DNA of 64,000 nucleotides from an uncultured Bacteroidales bacterium. GTDB taxonomy: Bacteria; Bacteroidota; Bacteroidia; Bacteroidales; JAFGXI01. Shown here piece by piece: positions 3,665 to 18,223 of the stretch; the stretch's first letter is position 1, and each line of letters starts with the position of its first letter. The DNA is taken from positions 1,425-65,424 of the forward strand of contig CAMZKE010000045.1 of the NCBI GenBank assembly GCA_947311115.1, given 5' to 3'. Below the pieces are notes generated by a model, which worked only from the letters and a program-made list of their open reading frames with translations, had not been told where the DNA came from and did not search any database. A program made the position numbers and the translations under genes.

Positions 3665-3677
3665 GCGGTCTGGACGA
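3665..3677. repeat. attL: 13-bp direct repeat GCGGTCTGGACGA (displaced 3' end of tRNA-Asp)
   Basis: Identical 13-mer at 18211-18223, inside the tRNA-Asp acceptor and T-stem. Confidence 0.75.
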
Positions 3678-3825
3678 TACCCACCATTACACAAATTACA
3701 CAATAAAAATATTTAAAATATTAGTGCGAGGATTGGAAACTCTCAAAGCTAATGATGTGAGCAAGTTAGGGAGTACTTAAATGTATTCCCTGCTTTTATT
3801 ATTTATTAATTTAAAATTGTGTAAG

Positions 3826-4068
3826 ATGAAAACAAAAGAGAGATTAAAAGAGTTTTACGAAAACCTTTATAATGATAGGTACAAAGATATATTAGAGGTT
3901 GTCAAAATTGATGTAGAGGTTATAAACGTGTACATTGTTGCTAAGGTAAAAAAAGATTTTCAATTTATAGAAATAACGCCGTTTAAAGATGCTAAAATAA
4001 TCGGTGTTAATATAGGTACAGGAGTAATAAAATTTATTGAGGATTTAAGAGATGAAAACAATTTATAA
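3826..4068 (+). CDS. hypothetical protein (first gene inside attL)
   Basis: ORF 3781..4068 trimmed to the internal ATG at 3826 (MKTKERLKEFYENLY...). No motif recognised. Confidence 0.4.
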   Translation: MKTKERLKEFYENLYNDRYKDILEVVKIDVEVINVYIVAKVKKDFQFIEITPFKDAKIIGVNIGTGVIKFIEDLRDENNL

Positions 4069-4438
4069 CATACAAGGCGATTTATTTAGTGATGCTGGAG
4101 TTTTGATTTTTAACGATATTGTTTCAAACAAAGAGGTTAATTTAGATTTGTTTAACATTGAATTTGCCAATGATATGGTATATAAATATCAACAGCAATC
4201 AATTATAACCTATTTAACAGGACTAACAGCACAGCAACAAAAAGCCCATACAATAACGATAACAAAAAAGAAAATAGAAATGTTTAATAACATCAACAGT
4301 ATATTAGTTGATAGTTTAAAAAACTTCAATTCTGATAAGATTATTACAGCTATTGGAATGTTATCGGAACTAACAAAAAACAAAACAAGTTTAACAAAGC
4401 TGGCGAAAATTAAAAGCTGGTTAAAAGAAAATTATTAG
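4052..4438 (+). CDS. hypothetical protein
   Basis: 128-aa ORF overlapping the preceding ORF by 17 nt. No motif recognised. Confidence 0.45.
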   Translation: MKTIYNIQGDLFSDAGVLIFNDIVSNKEVNLDLFNIEFANDMVYKYQQQSIITYLTGLTAQQQKAHTITITKKKIEMFNNINSILVDSLKNFNSDKIITAIGMLSELTKNKTSLTKLAKIKSWLKENY

Positions 4439-4459
4439 TAAAAATGTAAGTAACTGAAT

Positions 4460-4500
4460 AACAGCTAAAAGCTGTTTAAAAAGCCCTTACTTGATAATAT
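4460..4500 (+). promoter_or_regulatory. candidate double-strand origin: hairpin AACAGC/GCTGTT followed by CTTGATAATA
   Basis: CTTGATA at 4490-4496, about 40 nt upstream of rep. As I remember it, this heptamer is the nick-site core of pC194/pUB110-type plasmids and phiX174 (CTTG/ATA). Confidence 0.4.
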
Positions 4501-4533
4501 ACGAACTAAGTGGAGATTTTAAAAAGGTAAAAA

Positions 4534-6090
4534 ATGAGTAAAAACTCAAAAAATATAGACGGTAAAAATAATGTTAAGCGAAATTATACTTATAGCAATA
4601 AATTAGCATATAAAAATAAAGAAAATAAGCAAAAAGCACAGGCAATTTATGAATATTGCAAAGAGTGGGGAATAACACTACCAACAACTCGCAAAGAATA
4701 CAAAGAAAATAAAGACCTTGTACTTGCAGACAGAGAAACAGGCTATATTTTAGAGGAGTTTGATATTATCGCACGAGCTTATTACGATTTAAAACAGCCT
4801 ATCAATTCAGTATTAGCAGAGTTTCAAGATGATAACGGCAATAAACGTTATCAATTACTTATGTCGCAATATTCACGTAATAAGATTGATAGTATATGGA
4901 ATTATAAAAAAAGTAAAACGGCACGGCGAGTTTGGATAGAGTATTTAAAAGAACATACCGAACTAATAAAAGACTATGAGCCGAAACATCTAACTTTAAC
5001 CGTACCTCATAAAAACGGAACTTGGCGAGGTCAAGAATTTTTTGCAAAAGAACTTATCAAAGAATTTAACTTAATGCGTAAATCTGATAAGTTTAAACAG
5101 TATATTTATGCAGGTGCGTATAATATTGAAACAACAAAAACCGAAAACGGTAATCATACACACTTACACGCCTTAGTTTTTCAACATAAACAATATACAG
5201 TTAATAAAGTTAGAAAATTGATTGTTAAAGATTGGAACAAACGCACAGGTGCAACGCAGATAAGATATGAAAGTTTATATGTACATCAAAAAGATAACGC
5301 AGGGCGTTGGATAATTGAAACAAAAGAGGAATTATATCACAACGAGCTGGACGCTGACGGTAACGAAATAAAAGTAACACACAAAAACGCATATTCATTT
5401 AGAAAAAAGTTTTATTTAGATAACTCAAACGATTGGTACAGGAATTTAACAGACGTTGAGAAAATAGAGCAAATGAGTATTGGCATACTTGAAACATTAA
5501 AGTATAATTTTAAAGAGGAAGTATTTAAAAACCCTGACGGTACATATAACGTCTCATTTATGCACGAAACCCTTATAAATGGTAAAGGCTTACGTTTTTA
5601 TTCAAAGTTCGGTGCATTTTACGGCGAAAAAAAATTAAATTTAAAACAGGAGTTAGAACGTGATGAGCCTCTAACCGTTGAAAATGAGCAATACGATGAG
5701 AGCCAAGAGGACGACTACAAAACAGACACAAACAACACTATAATAAACACTTATAACCCTTTTACATACGAACACGCAAATTTAAACGAGTGCAAACTTA
5801 AATTAATACAAGTTGATAGATTAAAATTTTTGCGAAAGCCTGAAAAAAAGGAGGTTATTCTCACGCCGAACAAAGAGGATTTAATCGCTATTATAGACGG
5901 TTTAGATTTAAAAAAAATAGCTGAACTTATTGCCAAAGGACAGTTAAACGAAATTATAAAAGAGGAGTTTACAACGGACGATACGTTTACAACTGATGAT
6001 TTAGATGTAGGTAATATTTTGAATAAAGATGAATTTAAAAGTACAAACGATTTTATAAATGCGTTTGAGAATGATTTTTATAATGTTTAA
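4534..6090 (+). CDS. rep: rolling-circle replication initiator, HUH superfamily, Rep_1 (pC194/pUB110)-like motifs, with long acidic C-terminal extension
   Basis: Motif 1 KHLTLTVPHKNG. Motif 2 NHTHLHALVF (HUH). Motif 3 ETLKYNFKEE (catalytic Tyr in YxxK). The C-terminal ~140 aa are D/E/T-rich. Confidence 0.8.
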   Translation: MSKNSKNIDGKNNVKRNYTYSNKLAYKNKENKQKAQAIYEYCKEWGITLPTTRKEYKENKDLVLADRETGYILEEFDIIARAYYDLKQPINSVLAEFQDDNGNKRYQLLMSQYSRNKIDSIWNYKKSKTARRVWIEYLKEHTELIKDYEPKHLTLTVPHKNGTWRGQEFFAKELIKEFNLMRKSDKFKQYIYAGAYNIETTKTENGNHTHLHALVFQHKQYTVNKVRKLIVKDWNKRTGATQIRYESLYVHQKDNAGRWIIETKEELYHNELDADGNEIKVTHKNAYSFRKKFYLDNSNDWYRNLTDVEKIEQMSIGILETLKYNFKEEVFKNPDGTYNVSFMHETLINGKGLRFYSKFGAFYGEKKLNLKQELERDEPLTVENEQYDESQEDDYKTDTNNTIINTYNPFTYEHANLNECKLKLIQVDRLKFLRKPEKKEVILTPNKEDLIAIIDGLDLKKIAELIAKGQLNEIIKEEFTTDDTFTTDDLDVGNILNKDEFKSTNDFINAFENDFYNV

Positions 6091-6105
6091 TTAAAAAGTA
6101 GAAAA

Positions 6106-6438
6106 ATGAAAAGAATTGAAGTAATTGGAAACATCGGCAAAGATGCCGTAATTAAAGATTTTAACGACAAAAAAGCAATAAATTTTAATATTGCCGAAAA
6201 TGAGTATTACACAGATAAAGACGGCAATAAGATTGAAAAAACAAGCTGGTTTAATTGCACACTTTGGAAGTCTGAAAGTCAAAGTATTAAGATAGCGGAA
6301 TACTTAAAAAAAGGCGTTAAAGTGTTTATTGAGGGAACGCCAAAAGCTGATAGTTATATTACTGATAAAGGCGAGAGTGTTGCTTTTATTAATATTCAAG
6401 TTAAAAATATTGAGCTATTATCTAAGGTTGAGAACTAA
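6106..6438 (+). CDS. ssb: single-stranded DNA-binding protein (OB fold) lacking the usual acidic C-terminal tip
   Basis: MKRIEVIGNIGKDAVIK....AINFNIAENE......G...EKTSWFNCTLW...AEYLKKGVKVFIEGTP is the classic SSB OB-fold pattern. The protein ends ...ELLSKVEN, with no D-D-D-I-P-F type tail. Confidence 0.8.
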   Translation: MKRIEVIGNIGKDAVIKDFNDKKAINFNIAENEYYTDKDGNKIEKTSWFNCTLWKSESQSIKIAEYLKKGVKVFIEGTPKADSYITDKGESVAFINIQVKNIELLSKVEN

Positions 6439-6451
6439 CGGGTTGGGGCTA

Positions 6452-6480
6452 TGAAGCGAATCCCCTTATAGTTCGCTTCA
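6452..6480 (+). other. 9-bp stem hairpin TGAAGCGAA / TTCGCTTCA immediately after ssb
   Basis: Read directly. Flanked by repeated TGGGGCT (6444-6450 and 6500-6506) and a second small hairpin GGGCT/AGCCC (6502-6521). Confidence 0.6.
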
Positions 6481-6548: not shown

Positions 6549-6830
6549 ATGTTTAAACAAATGAGCGACCAAATCACATTAAAAGAAGCAATTAAACTTA
6601 TAGATTCAAGTTCAGAAACATATAGTTTACATACGGTTATCATAGATGATAATGGAAATAAAATGCCAGTTTATAGTGGTGATTATTTATCAGAATCGCC
6701 AGTAAATACAATAGAAAGTTTTGTTAAAGAAACTGATAATTATGGTTCGTTTTGGCTTAAATTTTACGGTGAAATGGATTTGGTTGTCGCAAAATACCAA
6801 ATAGTTGATGAAAATGGCGAACCTGTTTAA
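6549..6830 (+). CDS. hypothetical protein, bracketed by a 15/16 inverted repeat
   Basis: 93-aa ORF. TGTTATAGCCAGTTAA (6523-6538) and TTAATTGGCTATAACA (6827-6842) are reverse complements with one mismatch. Confidence 0.45.
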   Translation: MFKQMSDQITLKEAIKLIDSSSETYSLHTVIIDDNGNKMPVYSGDYLSESPVNTIESFVKETDNYGSFWLKFYGEMDLVVAKYQIVDENGEPV

Positions 6831-6910: not shown

Positions 6911-7096
6911 ATGTTAATAGTAGTAATAACAATATTATCAATAATTATAGTAATACAGTCTATTGGGCTGTATTACTTAAATTTATCATTTAAAAAACTT
7001 GTAAAGATGGCAAAAAAAGAATGTAAAAATAAAAATGTTGTAAAAGTAAAATCAAAAGTTAAACCTCTTAATAATTATTATATATGGCTCAATTAG
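6911..7096 (+). CDS. small membrane protein (N-terminal TM helix, Lys-rich C-terminus)
   Basis: MLIVVITILSIIIVIQSIGLYYL followed by KKLVKMAKKECKNKNVVKVKSKVK. Confidence 0.4.
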   Translation: MLIVVITILSIIIVIQSIGLYYLNLSFKKLVKMAKKECKNKNVVKVKSKVKPLNNYYIWLN

Positions 7097-7284
7097 AATT
7101 TAAACATACACATTTAACCTTATCGGACGTTGCAGATAGTTACGGTATTAGTATAAGTACATTACACAAGTGGTTAAAGCCAATTAAAAATGATTTGTTA
7201 AAGTTATCAAAAGTAAATACTAAACGTTTAAGAACTTTAAACAGCAAGCAATTAAACAAAATTCAAAATTTTTTATCTGCATAA
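7084..7284 (+). CDS. helix-turn-helix DNA-binding protein (excisionase/regulator-like)
   Basis: LTLSDVADSYGISISTLHKWLKP is a canonical HTH. The gene ends directly before the iteron array. Confidence 0.5.
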   Translation: MAQLEFKHTHLTLSDVADSYGISISTLHKWLKPIKNDLLKLSKVNTKRLRTLNSKQLNKIQNFLSA

Positions 7285-7291
7285 ATAAGAG

Positions 7292-7380
7292 CAATTAACT
7301 ACAATTAACTACAATTAACTACACTTAGCTACACTTAATTATACTTAGCTATACTTAGTAATATTTAGTGATATGCTTAA
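7292..7380. repeat. about nine tandem 10-bp iterons (CAATTAACTA x3, then CACTTAGCTA-type variants)
   Basis: Read directly: caattaacta caattaacta caattaacta cacttagcta cacttaatta tacttagcta tacttagtaa tatttagtga. The 10-bp period matches the helical repeat. Confidence 0.8.
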
Positions 7381-7405
7381 ATTTTCATAGTTGTATTATT
7401 GCAAC

Positions 7406-7930
7406 GTGAAAAAGAAAATTATAATATATTCAATTATTGCCGTGCTGGTAGTACTTGCTTTTTTTGGTATCAAAAAAGCAAAAAAAATGCTTGCGTTAAA
7501 AAAAGCAAAAGTAAACGTATTAGATTTTCAGTTGTTAGATAATATCGGCGTTAAAACATTAAACACAGGATTTAATACAAAAGTAGATTTAAAATTACAA
7601 AACTATTCGCCGAACACTTACCAATTAGAGCAATTACAAGTTGATTTATATACTCCGTCTGGTCAATTATTAGCAGAACAACAACAACCAATTAAACCAA
7701 CGGAAATAAAACCAAACGCTAATACAACCGTTTCTATTAATCATTATATCAAAAGTGAAAAGTTTTTAGACTTGCTATCTGAAAATGATTATATAGATAA
7801 AAAAGAAACTGTTTTAGAAATAGCAATGAAATTATTATCAATGGATTTAAGCGGTGTTAATTTAACAATAAAAGGTTTTGCAATTATTGACGGTCTGGAA
7901 ATACCAATAAATGAAAATATATCTTTATAA
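7406..7930 (+). CDS. membrane-anchored beta-rich protein, possibly LEA_2/NDR1-like fold
   Basis: Track ORF 7391..7930 (TTG) trimmed to GTG 7406 (MKKKIIIYSIIAVLVVLAFFGI). VDLKLQNYSPNTYQLEQLQVDLYTPSGQLLAE resembles the LEA_2 pattern from memory. Weak. Confidence 0.45.
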   Translation: MKKKIIIYSIIAVLVVLAFFGIKKAKKMLALKKAKVNVLDFQLLDNIGVKTLNTGFNTKVDLKLQNYSPNTYQLEQLQVDLYTPSGQLLAEQQQPIKPTEIKPNANTTVSINHYIKSEKFLDLLSENDYIDKKETVLEIAMKLLSMDLSGVNLTIKGFAIIDGLEIPINENISL

Positions 7931-10011
7931 TGTTAGAAAATTTAAACATAGAGAAACCAAAATATATTGACGGTATAGTAAAGTATAATGCCACATTAGA
8001 GGACACCTTAAAACTTGTTTCTTTGATTAGTTCAAGAGATAGTTATCAAGTTAAAGGATTAGCCGAAAAGTTAAAAGCTGGTACAGTAGAGCAAACAGCA
8101 CATAATATTTGGAATTTCTTAAAATCAAACATACCATATAAAGAGGACACACGAGGAACGGAACAAGTAAGAACGCCAGCACGAGTTATTGAGGACGCAA
8201 AAAATGGCATTGGCGTTGATTGTGATTGTATGACTACCTTAGTGAGTGCAATTTTAAAGGAATTAAACATTAAACATTATTACAAGGTTGTAGCTTGGCA
8301 GGGCGATAATTACGCACATATATATCCTGTTGCTATTGACAATAACGGCAATGAATACGCTATTGACGGAATACCTGAAATAATACAATTTAATGTTGAG
8401 TTACCGTATTCATCTGAATTAAAATTTAATCAAAATTATTATAAAATGGATTTACAAGAATTAAACGGCACAGTTGCAGAACTTGAAGAAAAGCAAATTG
8501 CTGACGACTTTTTTAATACGGAGTTAAGCGGTGCAAATACTGATGAGGATAGCGAGGAAAGTTTAGATAAATACTATTCTGAAAATTATCACGCTTTAAT
8601 GGGTAATTATATTGTTGTTGATGATGAGCAAGACGCTGAATTTATTTTAGCTGGTGCTGATTTTTTTGAGGGCATATTTTACAAACAAACGCAATTATTA
8701 CTATCAAATTTGCGTAAAGAAAAAGAAAACCCTACTTTTTTAAGTAAATATCAAAACACAGAAAAAGAAATTGCCATTGCTGAAACTGTTTTGGTGAATT
8801 GGAAAGAAGATATTTTGCCAGCAATTTTAACAGAGGCGATACAGGATAGTGATAAATACAAAGATTTTTATATCGAACTTCGCAAAGGTATAACCGAATA
8901 TACAAGAAATAACGAGTTAAACGGTGTTGAGGACTTTGATATTTATTTAAAAGCTATCGGCGAGGACGAATTAAACGAATTGGAGTTAAATGGCTCATTA
9001 GACGGTTGGTTTAAAAAGGCTTGGAATAAAGTTAAAACAGGCTTAAAAAAAGCTGGTAAAAAGGTTAAAAACGGACTTTTAAAAGTTGGGCGTAAACTTC
9101 ATAGAGTCGCAATGTTCCCTGCACGAGCAACGGTATTTCCTATATTGCGAGCTGGTGGCGGTATATTATTTTTAGCACGATACGCAAACCCTGCTGACTT
9201 AAAAAAGTCTGCTAAGTTAAGAGAAAAGAAACGCCGTGCTGATTTTATAGTACACAAACTTGTTAGAGTTTTAGGGTATAATTTATCAAAGTTTGATAAC
9301 CTTGTTAAAGCTGGTATAAAAACAGCTTTTGGTGGCGTTGATAAAGCCTTTGCAAGATTAAAAAGAGGTAAACAGTTATACGGTACAGAACTTAACGGCG
9401 AATTAGGATTTTGGGCAACAGCCGCAAGTGCTGTAATAGGTTTAATTGGTAAACTTTGGAAGTTTATACAAAAGATTTTCAAAAAGAAACCAAAAGACCC
9501 AAAATTAACGGCTGGTGATTTTGCAAACGGTAGTACTGCAAACAATAACGCTGGTAATGATAACAACGATAATGCTGGTAATGATGATTACGCTGGTAAC
9601 GATTACAACGATAATGCTGGTAACAATTCAAAAAGTACAAGAATGAGTACATCAAATACAAAAGAAGAGGGCGGAAAAACTAAAAACGCATCAATAGTTG
9701 CTAAAGCTAAAGAGTTTACGAAAAAACATAAAACTACTTTAATAATAGTATCTATTGTTATTGTGTTGTTGATTGTAGGTTTTGTTTTTTGGAAAAAAAG
9801 CCACAGCAAGCCGAAAAAACGCAGAAGTGTAAACGGTAGGCAAAAAGCCTTAAACGGAACAAGAGTTGTAACGAGTACAAGCGTTAAAACTATTGACACA
9901 GGAAAGCGTTTAAAACAAATGCACCGTATTGCAAAAAGAATGAGAAAACAATATCCGAACGCTAAATACTCCACTTTGTTAAAAAAAGCAAGTAAAGAGC
10001 TTAAAAAGTAG
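7930..10011 (+). CDS. large transglutaminase-like cysteine peptidase domain protein with amphipathic Lys-rich region, N/D/G low-complexity repeats and C-terminal TM
   Basis: Cys-His-Asp core pattern GVDCDCMTTLVSAIL...NYAHIYPVAID...YAIDG. Residues ~350-520 are Lys-rich amphipathic helices. NDNAGND repeats occur at 9540-9625. TM segment TTLIIVSIVIVLLIVGFVFW. TAATG coupling with the previous ORF. Confidence 0.6.
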   Translation: MLENLNIEKPKYIDGIVKYNATLEDTLKLVSLISSRDSYQVKGLAEKLKAGTVEQTAHNIWNFLKSNIPYKEDTRGTEQVRTPARVIEDAKNGIGVDCDCMTTLVSAILKELNIKHYYKVVAWQGDNYAHIYPVAIDNNGNEYAIDGIPEIIQFNVELPYSSELKFNQNYYKMDLQELNGTVAELEEKQIADDFFNTELSGANTDEDSEESLDKYYSENYHALMGNYIVVDDEQDAEFILAGADFFEGIFYKQTQLLLSNLRKEKENPTFLSKYQNTEKEIAIAETVLVNWKEDILPAILTEAIQDSDKYKDFYIELRKGITEYTRNNELNGVEDFDIYLKAIGEDELNELELNGSLDGWFKKAWNKVKTGLKKAGKKVKNGLLKVGRKLHRVAMFPARATVFPILRAGGGILFLARYANPADLKKSAKLREKKRRADFIVHKLVRVLGYNLSKFDNLVKAGIKTAFGGVDKAFARLKRGKQLYGTELNGELGFWATAASAVIGLIGKLWKFIQKIFKKKPKDPKLTAGDFANGSTANNNAGNDNNDNAGNDDYAGNDYNDNAGNNSKSTRMSTSNTKEEGGKTKNASIVAKAKEFTKKHKTTLIIVSIVIVLLIVGFVFWKKSHSKPKKRRSVNGRQKALNGTRVVTSTSVKTIDTGKRLKQMHRIAKRMRKQYPNAKYSTLLKKASKELKK

Positions 10012-12147: not shown

Positions 12148-13104
12148 ATGAGTAAGAAAAGAATAATACAAGCCGAAAGCGATGAACAAATAAAAAATTT
12201 TGTTTCAACTTATAAATATTGGGCAATATTAGACGGTAGCGATGAGCTGGCAAATTCTAATATTGAGAATGTAGATTTTGAAAAAGAATTAATAAAAGCT
12301 ATTGATGTAGGTATTAAGAGAGGGCGACAATATTTAGTTATTCGTGTTGGAAGTAATGAGTATAATAGTCGTACCAATGATGAAATGGTAATAAGTTTAT
12401 CTAATTATACAAATCCAATTACAGAACAATACGCACCAAACACACAACCAAACGCACCAATTATTTTAAGTGGTCTTAACAAGCCGTTAAATAATACAGG
12501 CATAACAGCAACGGAAATGCAAACTTATTTAAACGGTGCATTAGAAAGGCAACAAAAGGAATTTGAGGCAATGAATAAAAGTACCCTTGCAGGCTTGCAG
12601 GCTGAAATGAAAAAACAGCAAGCTGAACAGGAAATTGCACTTTTAAAGCAAATGCACGAGCAACAAATGAATTTTGAACGCCAATTATTACAGCGTGAAC
12701 GTGAGGAGTTAGAACGTAAACAACGAGAGCTGGAAGTGGAACGAGAGGAGTTTGAATTTGAAAAACAAGAAAACAAAGAGGGTATAAAAGGATTTGTTTC
12801 AACACTTGCAGGCTTTGGACGTGATTTAGTGGACGATGTTTTGCCAAAAAAAGATAAAGAAGATACTGAGCTAAAAGGAACTGAAAATATTGACACTTCA
12901 AATGTTGATAATACAGAAACTTTACAATTTGAGGACACGGAAACAAACGATAACAACGAGGCAGATATAATTTTAGACGGCATAGAAAAAATGAGCAAAG
13001 AGGATTTGCAAGTTATACAGGAACTACTTGCCGAAAAATTAAAAGATAACAACACAGAAAAAAACAAAGAATTTACTAACGATAAAACGCAAGAAAATGA
13101 ATAA
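12148..13104 (+). CDS. coiled-coil, E/Q/K-rich protein with acidic tail (scaffold-like)
   Basis: Central QQKEFEAMNK...LQREREELERKQRELEVEREEFEFEKQE heptad-like stretch. D/E/T/N-rich C-terminus. Confidence 0.5.
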   Translation: MSKKRIIQAESDEQIKNFVSTYKYWAILDGSDELANSNIENVDFEKELIKAIDVGIKRGRQYLVIRVGSNEYNSRTNDEMVISLSNYTNPITEQYAPNTQPNAPIILSGLNKPLNNTGITATEMQTYLNGALERQQKEFEAMNKSTLAGLQAEMKKQQAEQEIALLKQMHEQQMNFERQLLQREREELERKQRELEVEREEFEFEKQENKEGIKGFVSTLAGFGRDLVDDVLPKKDKEDTELKGTENIDTSNVDNTETLQFEDTETNDNNEADIILDGIEKMSKEDLQVIQELLAEKLKDNNTEKNKEFTNDKTQENE

Positions 13105-13396
13105 GTATAATATTGAAGTAAGAGTAAACGATAACGGTAAAATAAAGAGCTTACATATAGATATGCAAGCGGAAAGTTTAACACACTTAGCAAGCGAAAT
13201 ACAAGGCTTGCAACAATTAAACAAAACTCTTTCGCACGATGATTTTATGCAAGCAAAAGAATTGATTATACAAAAACCGCAGTTAGTAACTACTATTAAA
13301 GAGGTTATTAACGAAACCGAAGATTTAAGCGAAACTCAAATGCTGATGAAAGCCCCGAGTTTAATTCGTAGATTTATTAAAGTATTAAAAGATTAG
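13097..13396 (+). CDS. hypothetical protein
   Basis: 99-aa ORF overlapping the previous ORF by 8 nt (ATGAATAA). Confidence 0.4.
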   Translation: MNKYNIEVRVNDNGKIKSLHIDMQAESLTHLASEIQGLQQLNKTLSHDDFMQAKELIIQKPQLVTTIKEVINETEDLSETQMLMKAPSLIRRFIKVLKD

Positions 13397-13400: not shown

Positions 13401-13835
13401 ATGAACCCTAAATTATTAGCCTTAGCCAGCAATTTAGATGTAAATAAGATAATAAAATACGTTATTATCCTTATTGTTGTTTTAATTGCAATTCGTTACA
13501 TTAAAAAGTATGTTAAAAAACATAAAAACGAGCAAGTAGTAGCCAATTTAGAGCAAGATATAAAGGTAAACAAATTATCTTATCCTTTATCTTATTATCC
13601 ATTATGGGCAGATGAGCTTTTTAAGGCAATGGACGGTATGGGAACTAATGAAGATGTTGTTTTTAAAATCTTTGGAAAACTTAAAACAAAAGATGATGTA
13701 TTGCAGTTAATTACAGCTTTTGGAGTGAAAAAAGAGGAAACATTAACGCAATGGCTTGTTGATGATTTAAGTGATGATGATAGAAACGCACTTAATCGTT
13801 TAATGAGTGATAAAAATATAAATTATCAGTTTTAA
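13401..13835 (+). CDS. membrane-anchored protein with a single annexin-type repeat
   Basis: TM segment IIKYVIILIVVLIAIRYI. Then WADELFKAMDGMGTNEDVVFKIFGKLKTKDDVLQLITAF matches the annexin repeat consensus A..L.KAM.G.GT.E..LI.I...R.......I as I remember it. Confidence 0.55.
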   Translation: MNPKLLALASNLDVNKIIKYVIILIVVLIAIRYIKKYVKKHKNEQVVANLEQDIKVNKLSYPLSYYPLWADELFKAMDGMGTNEDVVFKIFGKLKTKDDVLQLITAFGVKKEETLTQWLVDDLSDDDRNALNRLMSDKNINYQF

Positions 13836-13921: not shown

Positions 13922-14410
13922 ATGAAAATAACAAAGAAAACATATACATTAATAGCAATATTATTAGTTGTTATAGTTTTATTTGTTATCATAACTCGTA
14001 AGAAAATGGCAGAGATAAAAGAATGTAGTTTTTTTGACACAAAAGAATTTGATAGCCCAGATGTTCAAGGAAGTGGCAAGAATATGCAACACACAACATT
14101 ATTAATGCTTTGTGAGGCTCGTAAAATTGCAAATGTACCGTTTAAAATAAATAGCGGTTTTAGAACTATTGAACACAATGCAAAAGTTGGCGGTGTTGTT
14201 AATTCAGCTCACACGAGAGGCTATGCAATAGATATAAGCACGCCAAACGGACACAATCAAAAATTAATTGTTAAGGCTTTAAGACAAGCAGGATTTAAAC
14301 GCTTTGGAATTTATACAAATTTTATTCACGCCGATAACGACCCTATAAAAAAACAGTTTGCATATTGGGGAACAGCAAAGGAACGTTTTAACCCTTTTCA
14401 TTTAGCATAA
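13922..14410 (+). CDS. peptidase M15A-type cell-wall hydrolase with N-terminal signal anchor (endolysin candidate)
   Basis: TM segment TYTLIAILLVVIVLFVIIT. Then INSGFRTIEHNAKVGGVVNSAHTRGYAIDIS...FIHADND (the H..D...H zinc-site pattern of Peptidase_M15_3). Confidence 0.75.
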   Translation: MKITKKTYTLIAILLVVIVLFVIITRKKMAEIKECSFFDTKEFDSPDVQGSGKNMQHTTLLMLCEARKIANVPFKINSGFRTIEHNAKVGGVVNSAHTRGYAIDISTPNGHNQKLIVKALRQAGFKRFGIYTNFIHADNDPIKKQFAYWGTAKERFNPFHLA

Positions 14411-14616
14411 TGATAATGAATAATGTTAAAACATATATAGCGGTGGTATTGTACTTTATTAACGAAAATATGAGTATTGATAATATATTGAGTTTATCTA
14501 TTGCAGTATTTACAGTTATATACTTATTGCTGGGTATTGTTTTAAAATTTAGAAAAGTTATTGAAAATGACTGCAAAACAAAGAAAAATATTAATAATAA
14601 TTTTAGTGATAATTAG
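14410..14616 (+). CDS. small two-TM membrane protein (holin or membrane-protein candidate)
   Basis: TAATG coupling to the M15 gene. Two hydrophobic segments: TYIAVVLYFI and LSLSIAVFTVIYLLLGIVL. Confidence 0.4.
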   Translation: MIMNNVKTYIAVVLYFINENMSIDNILSLSIAVFTVIYLLLGIVLKFRKVIENDCKTKKNINNNFSDN

Positions 14617-14781: not shown

Positions 14782-14782
14782 A

Positions 14783-15439
14783 ATGAGCAGATTTATAAAA
14801 ATTGCACTTGTTATGTTGGCTTTTGCTTTTGGTTTTTTCCTGTATAAAAAAGCAAAGGACAAAGAGAATGATAAAAAGAAAAACAATGAGTTAAACGGTG
14901 CATTAGACGGTTTTTTTGTTACCGAGAGTATAAAGAACTTAGATGAGCTTAAAAAACAGTACCGAAAATTAAGTATGATTTACCACCCGGACAAAGGGGG
15001 AAGTGTAGAGCAAATGCAGGCTTTAAATGATGAGTACGATAAGCTAAGGGCAAAACTTAAAGCTGGTGCAAACTTATCGGACGAGGAAAGCGATTTAGAG
15101 GACGAGCTGGACGAGGTTTACAAAGAAGTTATAAGCACTTTAATTTTAATACCAAACATTGATATAGAACTTATCGGCTCTTGGATTTGGATTAGTGGGA
15201 ACACGTACCCTATTAAAGATATGCTAAAAGATTTAAACTTCAAATTCGCACGTAACAAAAAAATGTGGTATTGGCACGGCGATACTCCATATAAAAAGAA
15301 ATCAAAAGTAAAATATTCTATTGATGAGATTAGAGAGATGTATAAAAACCAAAAGATACAAAAGAACTACGGCAATAGAATATTAAACGGCTTATACAAA
15401 GATATGAGCTATTTACAAGGACTTTTAAACTATCGTTAA
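14783..15439 (+). CDS. membrane-anchored J-domain (DnaJ-like) protein
   Basis: N-terminal TM FIKIALVMLAFAFGFFLY. J-domain LDELKKQYRKLSMIYHPDKGGSVEQMQALNDEYDKL with the HPD motif. Trp-rich C-terminal domain ELIGSWIWISGNTYPIKDMLKDLNFKFARNKKMWYWHG. Confidence 0.7.
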   Translation: MSRFIKIALVMLAFAFGFFLYKKAKDKENDKKKNNELNGALDGFFVTESIKNLDELKKQYRKLSMIYHPDKGGSVEQMQALNDEYDKLRAKLKAGANLSDEESDLEDELDEVYKEVISTLILIPNIDIELIGSWIWISGNTYPIKDMLKDLNFKFARNKKMWYWHGDTPYKKKSKVKYSIDEIREMYKNQKIQKNYGNRILNGLYKDMSYLQGLLNYR

Positions 15440-15440
15440 T

Positions 15441-15881
15441 ATGGGAAATGTTATAAGTAGTATATTAAACGGTGCAACAAAAGGCATATTAAACGGTGCA
15501 AATAATATTATTGATAATATTGTTACTAATAAAGAGGAAAAAACACAGCTAAAAAACGAACTTACAAAAATATTAACCGAAAATGCTAACATTCAAGAAC
15601 AGGAACTTACAAAGAGGTTACAATATGATATGTCTTCTGATAGTTGGCTGGCAAAGAACATAAGACCGTTATCATTAGTATTCACAACATTATTTATATT
15701 TGGTATTACTCTAACAGACGGTAATATTGGAAGTTTTACCATTAACACGGTTTACATTGATTTGTTTAAATCGCTGTTAATGGTGCAATACTCCTTTTAT
15801 TTTGGCTCTCGTGCATTAACTAAATCACTTGCTTATTTAGATAAGTTTGATATAAGACTTTTTGGAAAGAAAAAAAGATAA
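15441..15881 (+). CDS. holin-like membrane protein (resembles the 3TM gene-transfer-agent holin family)
   Basis: The N-terminal pattern GANNIIDNIVTNKEEKTQLKNELTKIL, followed by hydrophobic segments, resembles GTA_holin_3TM proteins from memory. Last + strand gene of the block. Confidence 0.4.
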   Translation: MGNVISSILNGATKGILNGANNIIDNIVTNKEEKTQLKNELTKILTENANIQEQELTKRLQYDMSSDSWLAKNIRPLSLVFTTLFIFGITLTDGNIGSFTINTVYIDLFKSLLMVQYSFYFGSRALTKSLAYLDKFDIRLFGKKKR

Positions 15882-15911
15882 CAGGTATTTGCTTTTTTTG
15901 TTTTTTGTGTT

Positions 15912-15941
15912 AAACGTCCTCTATTTTGAGGGCGTTTTTTT
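15912..15941. terminator. hairpin plus T-run between the convergent late block and the PIN gene
   Basis: AAACGTCCTC / GAGGGCGTTT (one mismatch), followed by TTTTTTT. Confidence 0.45.
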
Positions 15942-16368
15942 ACGTTTTTAAATATTCTAACGGTGTAAATATTTGTAAATCAGAAGTGTTAAAATCTTTT
16001 TTATTCCTGGTAATAATTATGTTTATATTATTATTATAAGCACAAGCATTTATTAAACTATCCTCAAAGTCTTTAAAGTTTGAATTTAAAGCATATATAA
16101 CATCTATATCAGATAAATGAATAAGATTAACATAATTAAGTAGCTTTAACACTCCAAACATTGCCGTATCATTATTTGTATAGCGTGAGATTATATAATA
16201 AAGAGTATCTAAACTTAAAGAGGCATAAAAAAGTTTTGCGTTATTGTTTATTAATTTTTTTATAAATTCTTTAACATTATAATCTGTATTTCTATTAGTC
16301 AATATATCAACACATACATTAACATCTAATAGTAAATTTTTAGGCGTGTTTGTTTTTCCTATACTCAT
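15940..16368 (-). CDS. PIN-domain toxin (VapC-like)
   Basis: Track ORF 15940..16419 trimmed to internal Met (MSIGKTNTPKNLLLDVNVCVDIL...). LLDVNV contains the first PIN acidic residue. Sits downstream of, and overlaps, a Phd-like ORF. Confidence 0.6.
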   Translation of the reverse strand: MSIGKTNTPKNLLLDVNVCVDILTNRNTDYNVKEFIKKLINNNAKLFYASLSLDTLYYIISRYTNNDTAMFGVLKLLNYVNLIHLSDIDVIYALNSNFKDFEDSLINACAYNNNINIIITRNKKDFNTSDLQIFTPLEYLKT

Positions 16369-16636
16369 TGTATTCTTTTTTTGTTTTATTATAATCAATA
16401 TCAGCATCAATAATTCCAAGTAATTCGGATATATCTGTATTTAAACTTTCGTTTTTCTCTTTATTATTTAACCTATTCCATTCATCAAAACTAATCATAA
16501 CAATATTAGTTTTTTTGTTGCGATGAATGATAACAACTTCTTTCTTGTCGGATACCTTATCAAGTATAAATTTAGGTTTTCTTGTTAGTTCTGTTATGTT
16601 TATTACTTCCATAATCAAATTTTTTAAATTAAACAT
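16340..16636 (-). CDS. Phd/YefM-type antitoxin
   Basis: 98 aa. VINITELTRKPKFILDKVSDKKEVVIIHRNKKTNIVMISFDEWNRL fits the Phd/YefM N-terminal pattern. Confidence 0.6.
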   Translation of the reverse strand: MFNLKNLIMEVINITELTRKPKFILDKVSDKKEVVIIHRNKKTNIVMISFDEWNRLNNKEKNESLNTDISELLGIIDADIDYNKTKKEYNEYRKNKHA

Positions 16637-16652
16637 TTTTACAAAGATAGTG

Positions 16653-16688
16653 TTTTTCGTCTAATTAGTCAAATGATTAGACGAAAAA
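16653..16688. promoter_or_regulatory. 13-bp perfect palindrome TTTTTCGTCTAAT / ATTAGACGAAAAA upstream of the TA operon (operator candidate)
   Basis: Read directly; 17-52 nt upstream of the antitoxin start codon. Confidence 0.5.
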
Positions 16689-16735
16689 AGACACGCTTAA
16701 TTATTCGTTTAATTAAACAAATTATGTTATTTAAC

Positions 16736-16812
16736 ACTAAAAAACGACTAAAAAACGACTAAAAAACGACTAAAAAACGACTAAAAAAGCACTAAAAAAC
16801 ATCTAAAAAAGC
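16736..16812. repeat. seven tandem 11-bp repeats ACTAAAAAACG (phased A6 tracts)
   Basis: Read directly: four perfect copies, then three variants (ACTAAAAAAGC, ACTAAAAAACA, TCTAAAAAAGC). Confidence 0.9.
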
Positions 16813-16964
16813 ACTAATTTTAGTACCTGAATAGTGCGAAAACACTATCTAAGTTAGTTAATTTAGTAATAAATCAGTAATTTTTTACTTTGGCACGGTT
16901 TTTAACTTGCTTTCATCTAAAAGAGTTTCCTCGTACGATAGTACGAAATAGTAAATAAAAACAT

Positions 16965-17921
16965 TTAGAATAAATCAAACTTTTTAATTTCATTTATTTT
17001 TATTTCATCTACTACTTTTGCATAAATTTGAGTTGTACTTATTTTTTTATGTCCAAGTAATTTACTTATTACCTCTATTGGAATACCTAAACTAAGCCCA
17101 ACCGTTGCAAATGTATGACGTGCTACGTGAAAGGTTAATGTTTTACTTATATCGGTAAGTTTAGCAATTTTCTTTAAATTTTCGTTTGTTTTTTGATTGC
17201 TGACAACACGGAACAAATAACCGTTGTATGATGTAGGTAATAAACTTAATGCTTTATTGTTCAAAGGTACACGAACAAAATCTTTTGTTTTATGCTGTTT
17301 TATTTCAATTATATTATTTACTATATGTTTTGATTGCAAGTTCTTTATATCGGCAAATCTTAACCCTGTATAACACGAAAATAAGAAGTAAGAACAAACG
17401 TTTTTTATTGCCTCGTTGTTTGTTTCGGCTCTTAGTTTTTCAATTTTATTAATTTCTTTTTTTGTTAAAAAATCTCTTTTGCCCTCAATTCTGCCAATTT
17501 TGATACTATTAAAAGGATTGTGTTCTTTTGATATTATACCCTCGTTTATTGCTTTGTTAAGTGTTGATTTCAAAAAAGCATAAGTTTTTAAAATTGTATT
17601 CCTGTTATTACCCAGCTCTACGGTCATATATTTTTCGTATTCATAAATAAACTGCCTGTTAATTTCGTTTAGTTTTAAGTTTTTTCTAAATTTTTTTAGC
17701 TTGCTTTTTTGTGTTCTGTAAGTTTTTTTTGTTTCCTTGCTGTACTGATGAGAGTATTTATTCATAAAAAAATCTACAAAACTGAAAAAATCTAAATCTT
17801 TTTTTTGTGTGTGTTCAATTTTTTTTTGAGCAGAAAAATAACCGTTTAAAATTTCTACATTGCTTGAATTTGTTGAATAATACATATTTTTGTTTTTTGT
17901 GTTAGAAAACATAAAACGCAA
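16965..17921 (-). CDS. int: tyrosine recombinase/integrase of the phage-like element
   Basis: HVARHTFATVGL...LGHKKISTTQIYAKV catalytic block. Adjacent to attR and tRNA-Asp. The true start may be the Met at 17885. Confidence 0.9.
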   Translation of the reverse strand: MRFMFSNTKNKNMYYSTNSSNVEILNGYFSAQKKIEHTQKKDLDFFSFVDFFMNKYSHQYSKETKKTYRTQKSKLKKFRKNLKLNEINRQFIYEYEKYMTVELGNNRNTILKTYAFLKSTLNKAINEGIISKEHNPFNSIKIGRIEGKRDFLTKKEINKIEKLRAETNNEAIKNVCSYFLFSCYTGLRFADIKNLQSKHIVNNIIEIKQHKTKDFVRVPLNNKALSLLPTSYNGYLFRVVSNQKTNENLKKIAKLTDISKTLTFHVARHTFATVGLSLGIPIEVISKLLGHKKISTTQIYAKVVDEIKINEIKKFDLF

Positions 17922-17971
17922 AAATCGGACAAAATATTTTTTTATTTCAAAAAAAAAGTTTATAATTGCGT

Positions 17972-18142
17972 TGCGAAAATCTAAAAAAAATACGATATTT
18001 GTTGAGTAAAGTAATTACTGAAAGATATTTTACACAAAAATTGACCGCTTAGATTTTCGCACAAAAATAAAGCGGTCTTTTTTTATGTTCTTTTTTTAGT
18101 GAATAAAAAAAACGCCCTTCGTGAATTTTTGCGAAAATCTAA
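17972..18142. repeat. three copies of TGCGAAAATCTAA (two direct, one inverted) between int and attR: arm-type site candidates
   Basis: Direct copies at 17972-17984 and 18130-18142; inverted copy TTAGATTTTCGCA at 18049-18061. Confidence 0.55.
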
Positions 18143-18210
18143 GGACGTTTTCAAAAACAAGTTGTGTAACTTGTGTATGTGAGCCTGCAAACTTAGTGTT
18201 TACAGGCGTT

Positions 18211-18223
18211 GCGGTCTGGACGA
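18211..18223. repeat. attR: 13-bp direct repeat GCGGTCTGGACGA inside tRNA-Asp
   Basis: Identical to 3665-3677. Confidence 0.75.

What the first reader, a model, noticed from the sequence alone, without database searches (positions are those of the whole stretch)
3665..18223. About 14.6-kb tail-less, terminase-less phage-like rolling-circle element integrated in tRNA-Asp
Seen: GCGGTCTGGACGA occurs at 3665-3677 and 18211-18223. The right copy is the 3' end of an intact tRNA-Asp(GTC). The left copy is followed (minus sense) by the terminator hairpin expected downstream of that tRNA, so 3678-18210 is an insertion with its integrase next to the tRNA. From 3826 to 15881 every ORF is on the + strand, with frequent TAATG/ATGA coupling. 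The order is two small ORFs, HUH Rep, SSB, HTH protein and a 10-bp iteron array. About 20 ORFs follow in which I find no terminase, portal, tail or any Walker-A (GxxxxGK[ST]) motif. They do include at least eight predicted membrane proteins, three small beta-rich proteins, a coiled-coil acidic protein, an M15 peptidase with signal anchor and a holin-like protein. Inference: a temperate virus-like element with a small capsid. It may be membrane-containing and may package ssDNA, as Microviridae or FLiP-like phages combine an RCR Rep with no packaging ATPase. The gene set (transglutaminase-like giant protein, annexin repeat, J-domain) matches no phage family I recognise.
Basis: partly seen in the sequence, partly recalled or inferred. 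Interest (0 to 1): 0.85.

Follow-up and report, generated by a model that had tools for sequence, protein, structure and literature searches.

The report
Integrated tailless jelly-roll virus, undescribed family
A 14.5-kb insertion in a tRNA-Asp gene of a Flavobacteria-like bacterium looks like the dormant genome of a tailless virus from a widespread group that phage and virus databases do not yet contain, although no virus particle has been shown.

Summary
GCGGTCTGGACGA occurs only at 3665-3677 and 18211-18223. The right copy is the 3' end of tRNA-Asp(GTC). A related MAG has the same terminator hairpin and tRNA with nothing between them, so 3678-18210 (14,533 bp) is an insertion. No Walker-A motif occurs in any frame, and no terminase, portal or tail family matches.

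A block of about 12 genes (7391-14410) recurs in order in over 40 loci from Aquimarina isolates and from Flavobacteriales, Cytophagales and Saprospiraceae MAGs. It holds a 246-aa jelly-roll protein whose best solved-structure match is the SPV1 capsid. It also holds two paralogous 110-aa beta-sandwich proteins (pLDDT 90.6), a membrane-anchored transglutaminase-like protein and a lysis cassette.

Replication and lysogeny modules are swapped around this block: HUH Rep plus SSB here, VapE-like helicase elsewhere. Cargo genes also vary. No core protein matched PHROGs, GenBank phages, PDB sequences or IMG/VR.

Best reading (about 0.7): a temperate tailless virus of an undescribed family. ssDNA packaging and an internal membrane remain inference. 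The 10-bp array is more likely an operator than a Rep iteron.

The parts
3606..3647 (-). Terminator hairpin that originally followed tRNA-Asp; host DNA left of the insertion
   Evidence: Inverted repeat I2, 19-nt arms, 89% complementary. The same hairpin lies directly next to the intact tRNA in the empty site L048.
3665..3677 (.). attL core, a 13-bp copy of the tRNA-Asp 3' end
   Evidence: Exact repeat, 2 copies in the window, 0 expected.
3781..4068 (+). Small early ORF (95 aa; an alternative start is at 3826), unknown function
   Evidence: ORF list. No Pfam or PHROG hit.
4052..4438 (+). Small early ORF (128 aa), unknown function; also present in L001
   Evidence: jackhmmer hit in L001. No family hit.
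4534..6090 (+). Divergent HUH rolling-circle Rep of the pC194/Rep_1 type (518 aa)
   Evidence: Pfam Rep_1 E 1.2e-4, below the cut-off. The sequence carries motifs HLTLT, HTHLHALV and ETLKYNFK. 41% identical homologue in L001. No hit in phages, plasmids or PDB.
6106..6438 (+). Single-strand DNA-binding protein, OB fold only (110 aa)
   Evidence: Pfam SSB 3.7e-18 and phrog_44 3.9e-23.
6549..6830 (+). Acidic small ORF (93 aa), unknown function
6911..7096 (+). Small membrane protein (61 aa)
   Evidence: TM-like segment at residues 1-19. Homologue in L009.
7084..7284 (+). Xis/AlpA-like small HTH protein (66 aa)
   Evidence: Weak HTH_23 hit and phrog_1553 excisionase 7.6e-4. Family found in 22 related loci.
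7294..7373 (.). Array of about 6-8 degenerate 10-bp repeats (TTAACTACAC) just upstream of the structural operon; probable operator or late-promoter element
   Evidence: TRF: 7295-7357, 6.3 copies, 86% matches. Similar arrays in L009 and in L047, which has no Rep. The region does not fold, z +1.1.
7391..7930 (+). p179: N-terminal membrane anchor plus beta-rich, LEA_2-like domain; first gene of the conserved block
   Evidence: Family present in 32 loci. TM segment. LEA_2 matched by 3 proteins of the pooled scan, attributed to this family by inference.
7930..10011 (+). 693-aa transglutaminase-like (DUF553) protein with C-terminal membrane anchor and basic tail; probably carried in the particle for entry
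   Evidence: DUF553 in 29 of 30 family members. LPD1 (polyvalent-protein domain) in 20 of 30 longer relatives. TM at residues 598-616, net charge +23.
10073..10813 (+). 246-aa single jelly-roll protein with a disordered Arg-rich N-terminal arm; candidate capsid protein
   Evidence: AF2 pLDDT 80-90 over residues 70-246. Best PDB match is the SPV1 capsid 6oj0_A (E 1.1e-4, TM 0.51 by target length); other matches include SH1, PBCV-1 and plant-virus coats. CRESS-virus capsids appear among the BFVD matches. 560 cluster representatives at E<=1e-3.
10899..11123 (+). Variable small ORF (74 aa) with a (TES)n repeat
   Evidence: 9-bp x 5.6 repeat at 11052-11101. This slot varies from about 50 to 170 aa among loci.
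11135..11473 (+). b112: compact 8-stranded beta-sandwich (mini jelly roll); candidate capsid or vertex protein
   Evidence: AF2 pLDDT 90.6, pTM 0.82. Only generic jelly-roll matches: PliG, CBM35, GOLD domain, circovirus coat, HHIV-2 6h82_b; TM 0.4-0.5.
11476..11802 (+). b108: tandem paralogue of b112
   Evidence: hhalign probability 96.7%, E 3.6e-10. jackhmmer finds two copies per locus in most of 35 loci.
11792..12136 (+). b114: third small beta-rich core protein, not detectably related to b112
   Evidence: Family present in 35 loci. hhalign against the other families is negative.
12148..13104 (+). cc318: coiled-coil protein with an acidic tail (net charge -25); scaffold- or tape-measure-like role is a guess
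   Evidence: Family present in 37 loci. Charge. No family hit.
13097..13396 (+). p99: conserved small core protein, unknown function
   Evidence: Family present in 28 loci.
13401..13835 (+). anx144: membrane anchor plus annexin-like repeat; candidate lipid-binding structural protein
   Evidence: Annexin matched by 14 proteins of the pooled scan, whose window member of this 30-protein family matches at 9e-4; best E 1.6e-5. TM at residues 11-29.
13922..14410 (+). M15 peptidase endolysin with a signal anchor
   Evidence: Peptidase_M15_3 2e-15 and phrog_894 endolysin 6e-24.
14410..14616 (+). Small membrane protein (68 aa) inside the lysis cassette
   Evidence: TM segment. Present in the closest relatives.
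14783..15439 (+). Membrane-anchored J-domain protein shared with tailed phages
   Evidence: DnaJ 6e-6 and phrog_15863 1.7e-37. tblastn hits in Enterococcus and Fusobacterium phages.
15441..15881 (+). Holin
   Evidence: GTA_holin_3TM 3.4e-5 and phrog_3427 holin 1.4e-17.
15912..15944 (+). Terminator-like hairpin plus T-run that ends the long + strand operon
   Evidence: Fold -7.5 kcal/mol, z -3.5. The integrase-less contig L001 ends at the homologous point.
15940..16419 (-). PIN-domain toxin (cargo)
   Evidence: PIN_3 1.1e-12.
16340..16636 (-). Phd/YefM antitoxin (cargo)
   Evidence: PhdYeFM_antitox 3e-10.
16736..16810 (.). 11-bp x 6.8 tandem array (ACTAAAAAACG) downstream of the integrase gene, between its 3' end and the antitoxin gene; function unknown, possibly arm-type sites
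   Evidence: TRF score 122, 92% matches.
16965..17921 (-). Tyrosine integrase
   Evidence: Phage_integrase 9e-22 and Phage_int_SAM_5 3e-16. 68% identical integrase next to tRNA-Asp in L009.
18211..18285 (-). tRNA-Asp(GTC); its 3' end (18211-18223) is the attR core
   Evidence: ARAGORN and Rfam; repeat.

Best explanation
Positions 3678-18210 are the integrated genome of a temperate, tailless virus of Bacteroidota from a family not yet described.

Shown:
- A tyrosine integrase inserted the element at the 3' end of tRNA-Asp through a 13-bp core.
- The element has one unidirectional operon (3781-15881) and a minus-strand lysogeny and cargo unit (PIN/Phd toxin-antitoxin, integrase).

Inferred life cycle:
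1. On induction the integrase, perhaps helped by the small Xis/AlpA-like HTH protein, excises a circle of about 14.5 kb.
2. The pC194-type HUH Rep nicks it. Rolling-circle copies are coated by the element's own SSB.
3. The HTH protein acts at the 10-bp repeat array to turn on the conserved structural block.
4. The 246-aa jelly-roll protein and the paralogous b112/b108 mini jelly rolls (possibly also b114) form an icosahedral shell.
5. The membrane-anchored proteins (p179, the 693-aa transglutaminase-like protein, the annexin-like protein, small TM proteins) populate a lipid layer or the vertices.
6. The genome is enclosed by co-assembly or condensation, not by a motor, because no ATPase is encoded.
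7. The holin and M15 endolysin lyse the cell.
8. On entry the DUF553 papain-like domain of the 693-aa protein is guessed to cut peptidoglycan or host proteins.

Whether the packaged DNA is single- or double-stranded is open. I put ssDNA at roughly 40% for this Rep+SSB clade.
For: Integration: exact direct repeat, tRNA, adjacent integrase and an empty site in L048. The closest relative, L009, sits at the same tRNA. Another clade uses tRNA-Leu beside prs-L25-pth.

Conserved block: p179, the transglutaminase-like protein, the jelly-roll protein, a variable slot, b112, b112', b114, cc318, p99, the annexin-like protein and the endolysin keep their order in more than 40 loci.

Folds: a jelly roll whose top PDB hit is the SPV1 capsid protein. 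SPV1 builds its shell from single jelly-roll proteins over a lipid layer (PMC8459092). b112 is a high-confidence 8-strand sandwich with a tandem paralogue.

Virus-style modularity: the same block is joined to Rep+SSB (window, L001), to a VapE/DUF5906 helicase (L010, L046, L062, L045), and in L046 to an S24 LexA/CI-type repressor.

Cargo typical of prophages: a toxin-antitoxin pair here; type I, III and ISP restriction systems, a KAP NTPase, an AAA_21 protein, and Fur with a TonB receptor elsewhere.

Own lysis cassette.

Free-standing form: L001 is a 13,160-bp metagenome contig made only of the element. It has no integrase and no host flanks. It is collinear with window 3702-15941.

Spread: one MAG chromosome carries three copies. 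One variant was seen in 113 sample blocks.

No relaxase, T4SS or packaging ATPase.
Against: - No virion, excision product or circular contig has been seen. L001 has no terminal overlap.
- All long metagenome contigs are host-embedded.
- Fold matches are weak (TM about 0.4-0.5). Jelly-roll sandwiches are common in non-viral proteins: CBMs, PliG and TNF-like domains also appear in the hit lists.
- There is no sequence link to any capsid in PDB, PHROGs or GenBank phages.
- The strongly Arg-rich arm is present in only about 23% of distant relatives.
- A 14-kb genome without a packaging ATPase and without a double jelly-roll protein has no bacterial precedent.
- Rep rests on a sub-threshold Pfam hit plus motifs read by eye.
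- No obvious repressor is encoded in this copy.
Confidence: 0.7

Rival explanations
1. A membrane-vesicle or pleomorphic element. It is an integrative plasmid-like replicon that spreads in lipid vesicles studded with its own membrane proteins (pleolipovirus- or plasmavirus-like), with no icosahedral capsid. The jelly-roll proteins would be spikes or receptor binders.
For: Eight membrane-anchored proteins and an annexin-like lipid-binding repeat. No packaging ATPase. Replication modules are swapped around one structural block, as in Pleolipoviridae (own knowledge). The jelly-roll hit lists also hold TNF-like and tail-fibre-tip proteins.
Against: A complete holin-endolysin cassette argues for lytic release, not budding. 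Three or four small soluble beta-sandwich proteins, including a conserved paralogue pair, are more than a spike needs. The top solved-structure match is a capsid shell protein.
Confidence: 0.12
2. A phage satellite. It is an integrative element that relies on a helper phage's capsid. The conserved block would serve helper hijacking, not virion building.
For: Size 13-15 kb, tRNA integration, a small Xis/AlpA-like HTH gene, and in most relatives a VapE-like primase-helicase as in P4-like and PICI elements. No recognisable capsid by sequence.
Against: About 12 conserved genes spanning roughly 7 kb, with jelly-roll folds and an own lysis cassette, are far more than known satellites carry. No helper-type genes (HK97 capsid, small terminase, portal) are present. 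The window's element uses an RCR Rep and SSB. L001 appears alone on its contig.
Confidence: 0.08
3. A defective or domesticated island. It is a decayed prophage remnant or a host-retained lysis or bacteriocin-like module that no longer moves.
For: No excision product has been observed. No repressor is identifiable in this copy. Most instances sit inside chromosomes.
Against: All core ORFs are intact, at 93% coding density. The direct repeats are exact. An empty site exists in a relative. Insertion sites differ between genomes, and one genome carries three copies. An integrase-less stand-alone contig exists.
Confidence: 0.05
4. A mobilisable or conjugative integrative element whose HUH protein acts as a relaxase.
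For: HUH enzymes include relaxases. LPD1 polyvalent proteins also occur on conjugative elements (own knowledge).
Against: No T4SS, coupling protein or any P-loop ATPase is present. None is seen in about 45 related loci. The Rep motifs fit the replicative pC194 type. Most relatives lack the HUH protein altogether.
Confidence: 0.02

Closest known systems
Finnlakeviridae (Flavobacterium phages FLiP and phiCjT23)
   Same: Host class Flavobacteriia. Small genome with all core genes in one orientation. A rolling-circle-type Rep. No packaging ATPase. A virion-associated cell-wall enzyme is predicted. Lytic release. Minimal sequence similarity to other viruses (PMC7654751). phiCjT23 is temperate (PMC9719478, abstract).
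   Different: [quoted passage not shown] Here no ORF can hold a double jelly roll, and there is no tblastn similarity to any GenBank phage. The candidates are one 246-aa single jelly roll plus paralogous 110-aa sandwiches. The element is about 14.5 kb, and most relatives replicate with a VapE-like helicase.
Portogloboviridae (Sulfolobus polyhedral virus 1)
   Same: The best solved-structure match of the 246-aa protein is an SPV1 capsid chain. In SPV1 both shell proteins, VP4 and VP10, are single jelly rolls, and the shell lies over a lipid layer and a condensed genome. The nine SPV1 ORFs with assigned functions do not include a packaging ATPase (PMC8459092).
   Different: SPV1 is archaeal, non-lytic, about 20 kb dsDNA, and has a nucleoprotein core. 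The fold match is weak (TM 0.39 by query length, 0.51 by target length; 12% identity). There is no sequence relation and no shared genes. Common ancestry is not shown.
Corticoviridae (PM2) and related tailless proviruses
   Same: A roughly 10-kb circular genome with an RCR Rep, many small membrane proteins, small HTH regulators, and integrated copies in marine bacteria (own knowledge; tailless prophages under 16 kb are reported as common in Vibrio, PMC11630473, abstract).
   Different: PM2 has a double jelly-roll capsid protein and an FtsK/HerA-type packaging ATPase. Both were looked for here and are absent.
Helvetiavirae (Sphaerolipoviridae, Matshushitaviridae)
   Same: Shells built from two separate single jelly-roll proteins encoded side by side, over an internal membrane (own knowledge; kingdom definition in PMC8328091, abstract). 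Here b112 and b108 are adjacent paralogous beta-sandwiches. SH1 and HHIV-2 chains appear among the fold hits.
   Different: Those viruses encode the FtsK/HerA packaging ATPase, which is absent here. Their capsid proteins are larger (own knowledge). No sequence relation was detected.

Membership tests
tRNA-integrating tyrosine-recombinase element (prophage or island) | Direct repeat that duplicates the tRNA 3' end, integrase next to the tRNA, and an unoccupied site in a relative | tested here: met
   Empty site L048 aligned across the junction at 85% over 251 nt.
Caudoviricetes (tailed phages) | HK97-fold capsid protein, portal, large terminase, tail genes | tested here: not met
   No such Pfam or PHROG family in any of the 21 ORFs. 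No Walker A in six frames.
Finnlakeviridae | [quoted passage not shown] | tested here: not met
   The 246-aa protein folds as one jelly roll over residues 70-246. The other beta proteins are about 110 aa. The only longer structural ORFs are the coiled-coil cc318 and the 693-aa DUF553 protein. No tblastn hit to GenBank phages.
Finnlakeviridae | Circular ssDNA genome inside an internal membrane | not testable with these tools
   Needs particles, nuclease typing and lipid analysis.
Finnlakeviridae | RCR-type Rep and no packaging ATPase | tested here: met
   Rep_1 (weak hit) plus motifs. No P-loop motif. Most relatives of the block lack Rep.
Corticoviridae / Bamfordvirae in general | Double jelly-roll capsid protein plus FtsK/HerA-type packaging ATPase | tested here: not met
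Helvetiavirae | Two single jelly-roll capsid proteins | tested here: inconclusive
   b112 and b108 are adjacent paralogous 8-strand sandwiches. The fold hits are generic. Their place in a shell is unknown.
Helvetiavirae | FtsK/HerA-type packaging ATPase | tested here: not met
Microviridae | F-type capsid protein, phiX174-type Rep and a 4-7-kb genome | tested here: not met
   No Pfam or PHROG match to microvirus proteins. The element is 14.5 kb.
Tubulavirales (filamentous phages) | Zot/pI-type morphogenesis ATPase and extrusion without lysis | tested here: not met
   No P-loop motif. A holin and an endolysin are present.
Phage satellites (PICI or P4-like) | Integrase, regulator and primase/replicase with few or no virion genes; dependence on a helper | tested here: inconclusive
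   Integrase, HTH protein and (in relatives) VapE are present. However, a 12-gene conserved block with jelly-roll folds and a lysis cassette is also present. Helper dependence cannot be tested here.
Conjugative or mobilisable elements | Relaxase with T4SS or coupling protein | tested here: not met
   and the gene tables.

The most novel reading that the evidence does not exclude
This is the first recognised member of a new family, possibly a higher rank, of Bacteroidota viruses. Its capsids would be built from separate small single jelly-roll proteins, including a tandem paralogue pair that looks like an unfused minimal double jelly roll. It would have membrane-anchored accessory proteins and no packaging ATPase. 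One and the same virion module is combined with either a rolling-circle Rep+SSB or a VapE-type helicase. The same shell may therefore carry ssDNA in some lineages and dsDNA in others. The group is common in marine Flavobacteriia (560 clusters at 50% identity for the jelly-roll protein) yet absent from IMG/VR, PHROGs and GenBank phages.
Probability: 0.45. Interest if true: 0.88.

Novelty: new variant of a known kind. Interest (0 to 1): 0.74.

Why it matters
Tailless prophages are systematically missed by marker-based virus finders. Here a whole group present in cultured Aquimarina strains and many marine and sediment MAGs gave no hit in IMG/VR, PHROGs or GenBank phages.

If it makes particles, three things follow:
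- It adds a bacterial lineage that builds a shell without a packaging motor and without a double jelly-roll protein.
- The adjacent paralogous mini jelly rolls bear on how double jelly-roll capsid proteins arose from single ones.
- The swap between rolling-circle and helicase-type replication around one virion module would give a tractable system for asking whether one capsid can package ssDNA or dsDNA. At present that question rests mainly on FLiP versus PM2 and on archaeal pleolipoviruses.

The elements also carry toxin-antitoxin and restriction systems. They therefore matter for defence-gene traffic in marine Bacteroidota. Lysogens exist in culture collections, so the claim can be tested directly.

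Tried and rejected
- Sequence links to known viruses. tblastn of Rep, the 693-aa protein and the 246-aa protein against 50,697 GenBank phage records gave nothing. PHROGs gave nothing for 15 of 20 ORFs, and nothing for 131 distant relatives of the jelly-roll protein. HMM searches of PDB sequences with three profiles and with Rep gave nothing meaningful.
- IMG/VR. Four scans (single protein, then profiles of the jelly-roll, b112 and DUF553 proteins) gave no confirmed relative. These scans rely on exact degenerate peptide patterns and could miss divergent copies.
- Rep against 72,556 plasmids: no hit.
- Circular genomes. L001 has no direct or inverted terminal repeat. The one metagenome scan returned only short contigs or host-embedded ones.
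One homologue search with the single 112-aa sequence returned only 3 proteins. It had to be repeated with a profile.
- A common origin of the 246-aa jelly roll and the b112 family was rejected: hhalign probability 0.3-0.9%. b114, p179, cc318, p99 and anx144 are unrelated to each other.
- The 10-bp array as a Rep origin was judged unlikely.
- Literature. Five searches found no description of this group. The nearest leads were unrelated: the Mu-like fF4 prophage, the FLiP-like Pms1 prophage, and the 4.6-kb archaeal Charybdis elements.
- No sequence of 18 nt or more is shared between the element and the rest of the window in a way that would suggest a CRISPR spacer. The single chance match is AT-rich.

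Full report
**1. The observation**

GCGGTCTGGACGA occurs exactly twice in the 64-kb window, at 3665-3677 and 18211-18223, and never in shuffled sequence. ARAGORN and Rfam both place tRNA-Asp(gtc) at 18211-18285 on the minus strand. The right copy is therefore the 3' end of the tRNA. The repeat does not extend beyond 13 bp: no second copy of the longer tRNA 3' segment exists.

Left of the left copy lies a 19-nt-arm hairpin at 3606-3647. I tested the insertion claim directly. A gapped pattern (hairpin arm, 5-35 nt, tRNA 3' end running on into the tRNA body) was scanned over 185,579 species genomes. It hit one contig of a Bacteroidetes MAG, L048. There the hairpin and the intact tRNA are adjacent.

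The attB rebuilt from the window (3500-3677 joined to 18224-18330) aligns to L048 across the junction at 85% identity over 251 nt. So 3678-18210, 14,533 bp, is an insertion. Its G+C (29.8%) is close to that of the flank (31.0%).

**2. Content of the insertion**

Twenty-one ORFs from 3781 to 15881 lie on the + strand at 93% coding density. A strong terminator-like hairpin follows the last one (z -3.5). The minus strand carries only a PIN_3 toxin, a Phd antitoxin and a tyrosine integrase.

Pfam and PHROGs recognise the following:
- an SSB;
- an M15 endolysin;
- a 3-TM holin;
- a membrane-anchored J-domain protein, which is shared with Enterococcus and Fusobacterium phages;
- a DUF553 transglutaminase-like domain at the N-terminus of the 693-aa protein;
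- a weak annexin repeat;
- a small HTH protein with weak excisionase-type hits;
- a sub-threshold Rep_1 match (E 1.2e-4).

The Rep call is strengthened by three motifs visible in the sequence, which match the pC194 pattern as I know it: HLTLT, HTHLHALV and ETLKYNFK. It remains weak, because Rep has no relative in GenBank phages, PLSDB plasmids or PDB.

No [AG]xxxxGK[STGA] motif exists in any of the six frames of 3600-18300. Eight proteins carry a TM-like segment. No terminase, portal, tail, relaxase or T4SS family was hit.

**3. The block is a conserved unit**

The 246-aa protein has 29 close relatives among 5.8 billion proteins. A profile search of 1.84 billion cluster representatives gave 560 at E<=1e-3 and 224 at E<=1e-10.

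Loci fetched through this protein come from cultured Aquimarina species (mytili, longa, sediminis, hainanensis and others). They also come from Flavobacteriales, Cytophagales and Saprospiraceae MAGs and from metagenomes.

tblastn and jackhmmer over these loci show one gene order in more than 40 of them. The order is HTH (position variable), p179, a roughly 90-aa ORF, the DUF553 protein, the jelly-roll protein, a variable small ORF, b112, a second b112-like gene, b114, cc318, p99, the annexin-like protein and an M15 endolysin.

Family-level scans added three points:
- DUF553 is present in 29 of 30 members of the large-protein family. The polyvalent-protein domain LPD1 is present in 20 of 30, all longer forms.
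- Annexin was matched by 14 proteins of a pooled scan of five small families. The window's anx144 protein is one of them, so I attribute the matches to that 30-member family.
- LEA_2 was matched by three proteins of the same scan, which I attribute to p179.

**4. Folds**

With a 26-sequence alignment AlphaFold2 gave the 246-aa protein a disordered N-terminal 70 residues. These include RRRYSPKRYRRVR. Residues 70-246 form a beta sandwich at pLDDT 80-90.

Foldseek against PDB put an SPV1 capsid chain first (6oj0_A, E 1.1e-4, TM 0.51 by target length). SH1, PBCV-1 capsid chains and plant and gemini-virus coats follow. Furin P-domains, BcsB and tail-fibre tips also appear. BFVD returned many uncharacterised viral proteins and CRESS-virus capsids.

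SPV1's shell proteins VP4 and VP10 are both single jelly rolls over a lipid layer (PMC8459092).

b112 (11135-11473), modelled with 65 sequences, is a very confident 8-strand sandwich (pLDDT 90.6, pTM 0.82). Its matches are generic jelly rolls: PliG, CBM35, GOLD domain, nucleoplasmin, circovirus and bromovirus coats, and HHIV-2 chain b, at TM 0.4-0.5.

b112 and the next gene are paralogues (hhalign probability 96.7%, E 3.6e-10). Most loci hold the pair. The 246-aa protein is not detectably related to them, and the other small core proteins are unrelated to each other.

The jelly-roll folds are therefore supported. A capsid role is an inference from fold, gene context and the basic arm. That arm is strongly Arg/Lys-rich in only about 23% of distant relatives.

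**5. Modularity and mobility**

The same block is joined to different early modules:
- Rep plus SSB in the window and in L001;
- a VapE-like/DUF5906 helicase in Aquimarina and many MAGs;
- an S24 LexA/CI-type repressor in L046.

Integration sites differ. The window and its closest relative L009 use tRNA-Asp. L003 and L005 use tRNA-Leu beside prs-L25-pth. Many loci have no tRNA within 10 kb. One 2.1-Mb MAG chromosome holds three copies.

Between the lysis genes and the integrase, or between the early and late modules, relatives carry the following cargo:
- a ParE/Phd toxin-antitoxin pair;
- type I, type III and type ISP restriction systems;
- a KAP NTPase;
- an AAA_21 protein;
- Fur with a TonB-dependent receptor.

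The window carries PIN/Phd in that slot.

L001 is a 13,160-bp JGI contig that holds nothing but the element. It is collinear with window 3702-15941 and ends at the post-holin terminator. It has no integrase, no toxin-antitoxin pair, no host flank and no att core. It has no terminal overlap or inverted repeat, so circularity is not shown.

This pattern is what temperate virus groups look like: a fixed morphogenesis-plus-lysis block, exchangeable replication and lysogeny modules, and moron slots.

**6. The 10-bp array**

TRF finds 6.3 copies of TTAACTACAC at 7295-7357, and by eye about 8 degenerate copies span 7294-7373. The array sits between the HTH gene and p179.

Similar 10-bp arrays occupy the same place in L009 and in L047. 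L047 has no Rep. The region has no excess single-strand structure (z +1.1).

I therefore read it as an operator or activator array for the late operon, not a Rep iteron. Candidate hairpins for a rolling-circle origin lie after SSB (6446-6480, z -2.0) but are unproven.

**7. Comparison with known groups**

The closest in lifestyle and host is Finnlakeviridae. FLiP infects Flavobacterium, has all genes in one orientation, an RCR-like Rep, a virion lytic enzyme and no packaging ATPase (PMC7654751). Its defining double jelly-roll capsid protein is absent here, and there is no sequence similarity.

Corticoviridae and Helvetiavirae both require an FtsK/HerA ATPase that is absent here. Portogloboviridae give the best fold match and share the design of a single jelly-roll shell with no identified motor. 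They are archaeal, and the match is weak.

Microviridae, filamentous phages, tailed phages and conjugative elements each fail a defining feature.

Five literature searches found no description of this group.

**8. Verdict**

- Rolling-circle replication belongs to this clade, not to the group as a whole.
- ssDNA and a membrane are still guesses.
- The iteron is probably a regulatory array.

The best explanation, at about 0.7, is an intact temperate tailless virus of an undescribed family. The main rivals are a vesicle-borne or pleomorphic element (0.12) and a satellite (0.08).

It is also limited by the pattern-based nature of the collection scans and by the lack of any experimental or read-level evidence of excision.

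Noticed in passing
window 2193-3428 (minus strand) and 3515-3556: A second, larger tyrosine integrase (411 aa, with an Arm-DNA-bind_5 domain) lies just outside attL. The empty-site relative L048 has an AraC-like gene there instead. Similarity to L048 starts only at about 3541, next to a perfect 12-bp inverted repeat (3515-3526 / 3545-3556). A second integrated element probably extends leftward out of the window.
   Followed up: partly
window 16736-16810: A clean tandem array, 11 bp x 6.8 copies (ACTAAAAAACG, 92% matches), lies between the antitoxin gene and the integrase gene. It may be arm-type recombinase sites or an operator. This was not tested.
   Followed up: no
window 11052-11101 and 9541-9628: Two in-frame coding repeats. 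A 9-bp x 5.6 repeat gives (TES)n in the variable 74-aa ORF. A degenerate 24-bp repeat gives an Asn/Gly/Asp-rich low-complexity stretch in the 693-aa protein just before its membrane anchor.
   Followed up: no
L028, L032, L036 (all on OZ238992.1, a 2.1-Mb Flavobacteriales MAG chromosome): Three separate copies of the structural block sit in one small genome. Two have an Arm-type integrase at the left end. One has a type III restriction system after the lysis genes and a KAP NTPase between the modules.
   Followed up: partly
L004, L006, L007, L008 versus L003, L005: Elements with an identical jelly-roll protein differ after the lysis genes. Some carry a 1638-aa type ISP restriction enzyme and a DUF488 gene where others go straight to the integrase and tRNA-Leu. 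This variant was recorded in 113 sample blocks of the collection.
   Followed up: no
L062 2760-5776: A Fur regulator and a TonB-dependent receptor are inserted between the VapE replication module and the structural block. This is a possible iron-uptake cargo.
   Followed up: no
L065 9547-12787: A four-gene segment of about 1.9 kb (139, 57, 152 and 114 aa) is repeated in tandem downstream of the lysis genes. It is either a real duplication or an assembly artefact.
   Followed up: no
L001 1150-2684: In the integrase-less contig the Rep homologue (41% identity) is split into 202-aa and 259-aa ORFs. This is a frameshift, a sequencing error or a genuine two-part Rep.
   Followed up: no
L021, L028, L030 downstream of the lysis genes: Large proteins (1005-1732 aa) with a T9SS C-terminal sorting domain lie just after the block in three loci. 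It is unclear whether they are element cargo or host flank.
   Followed up: no
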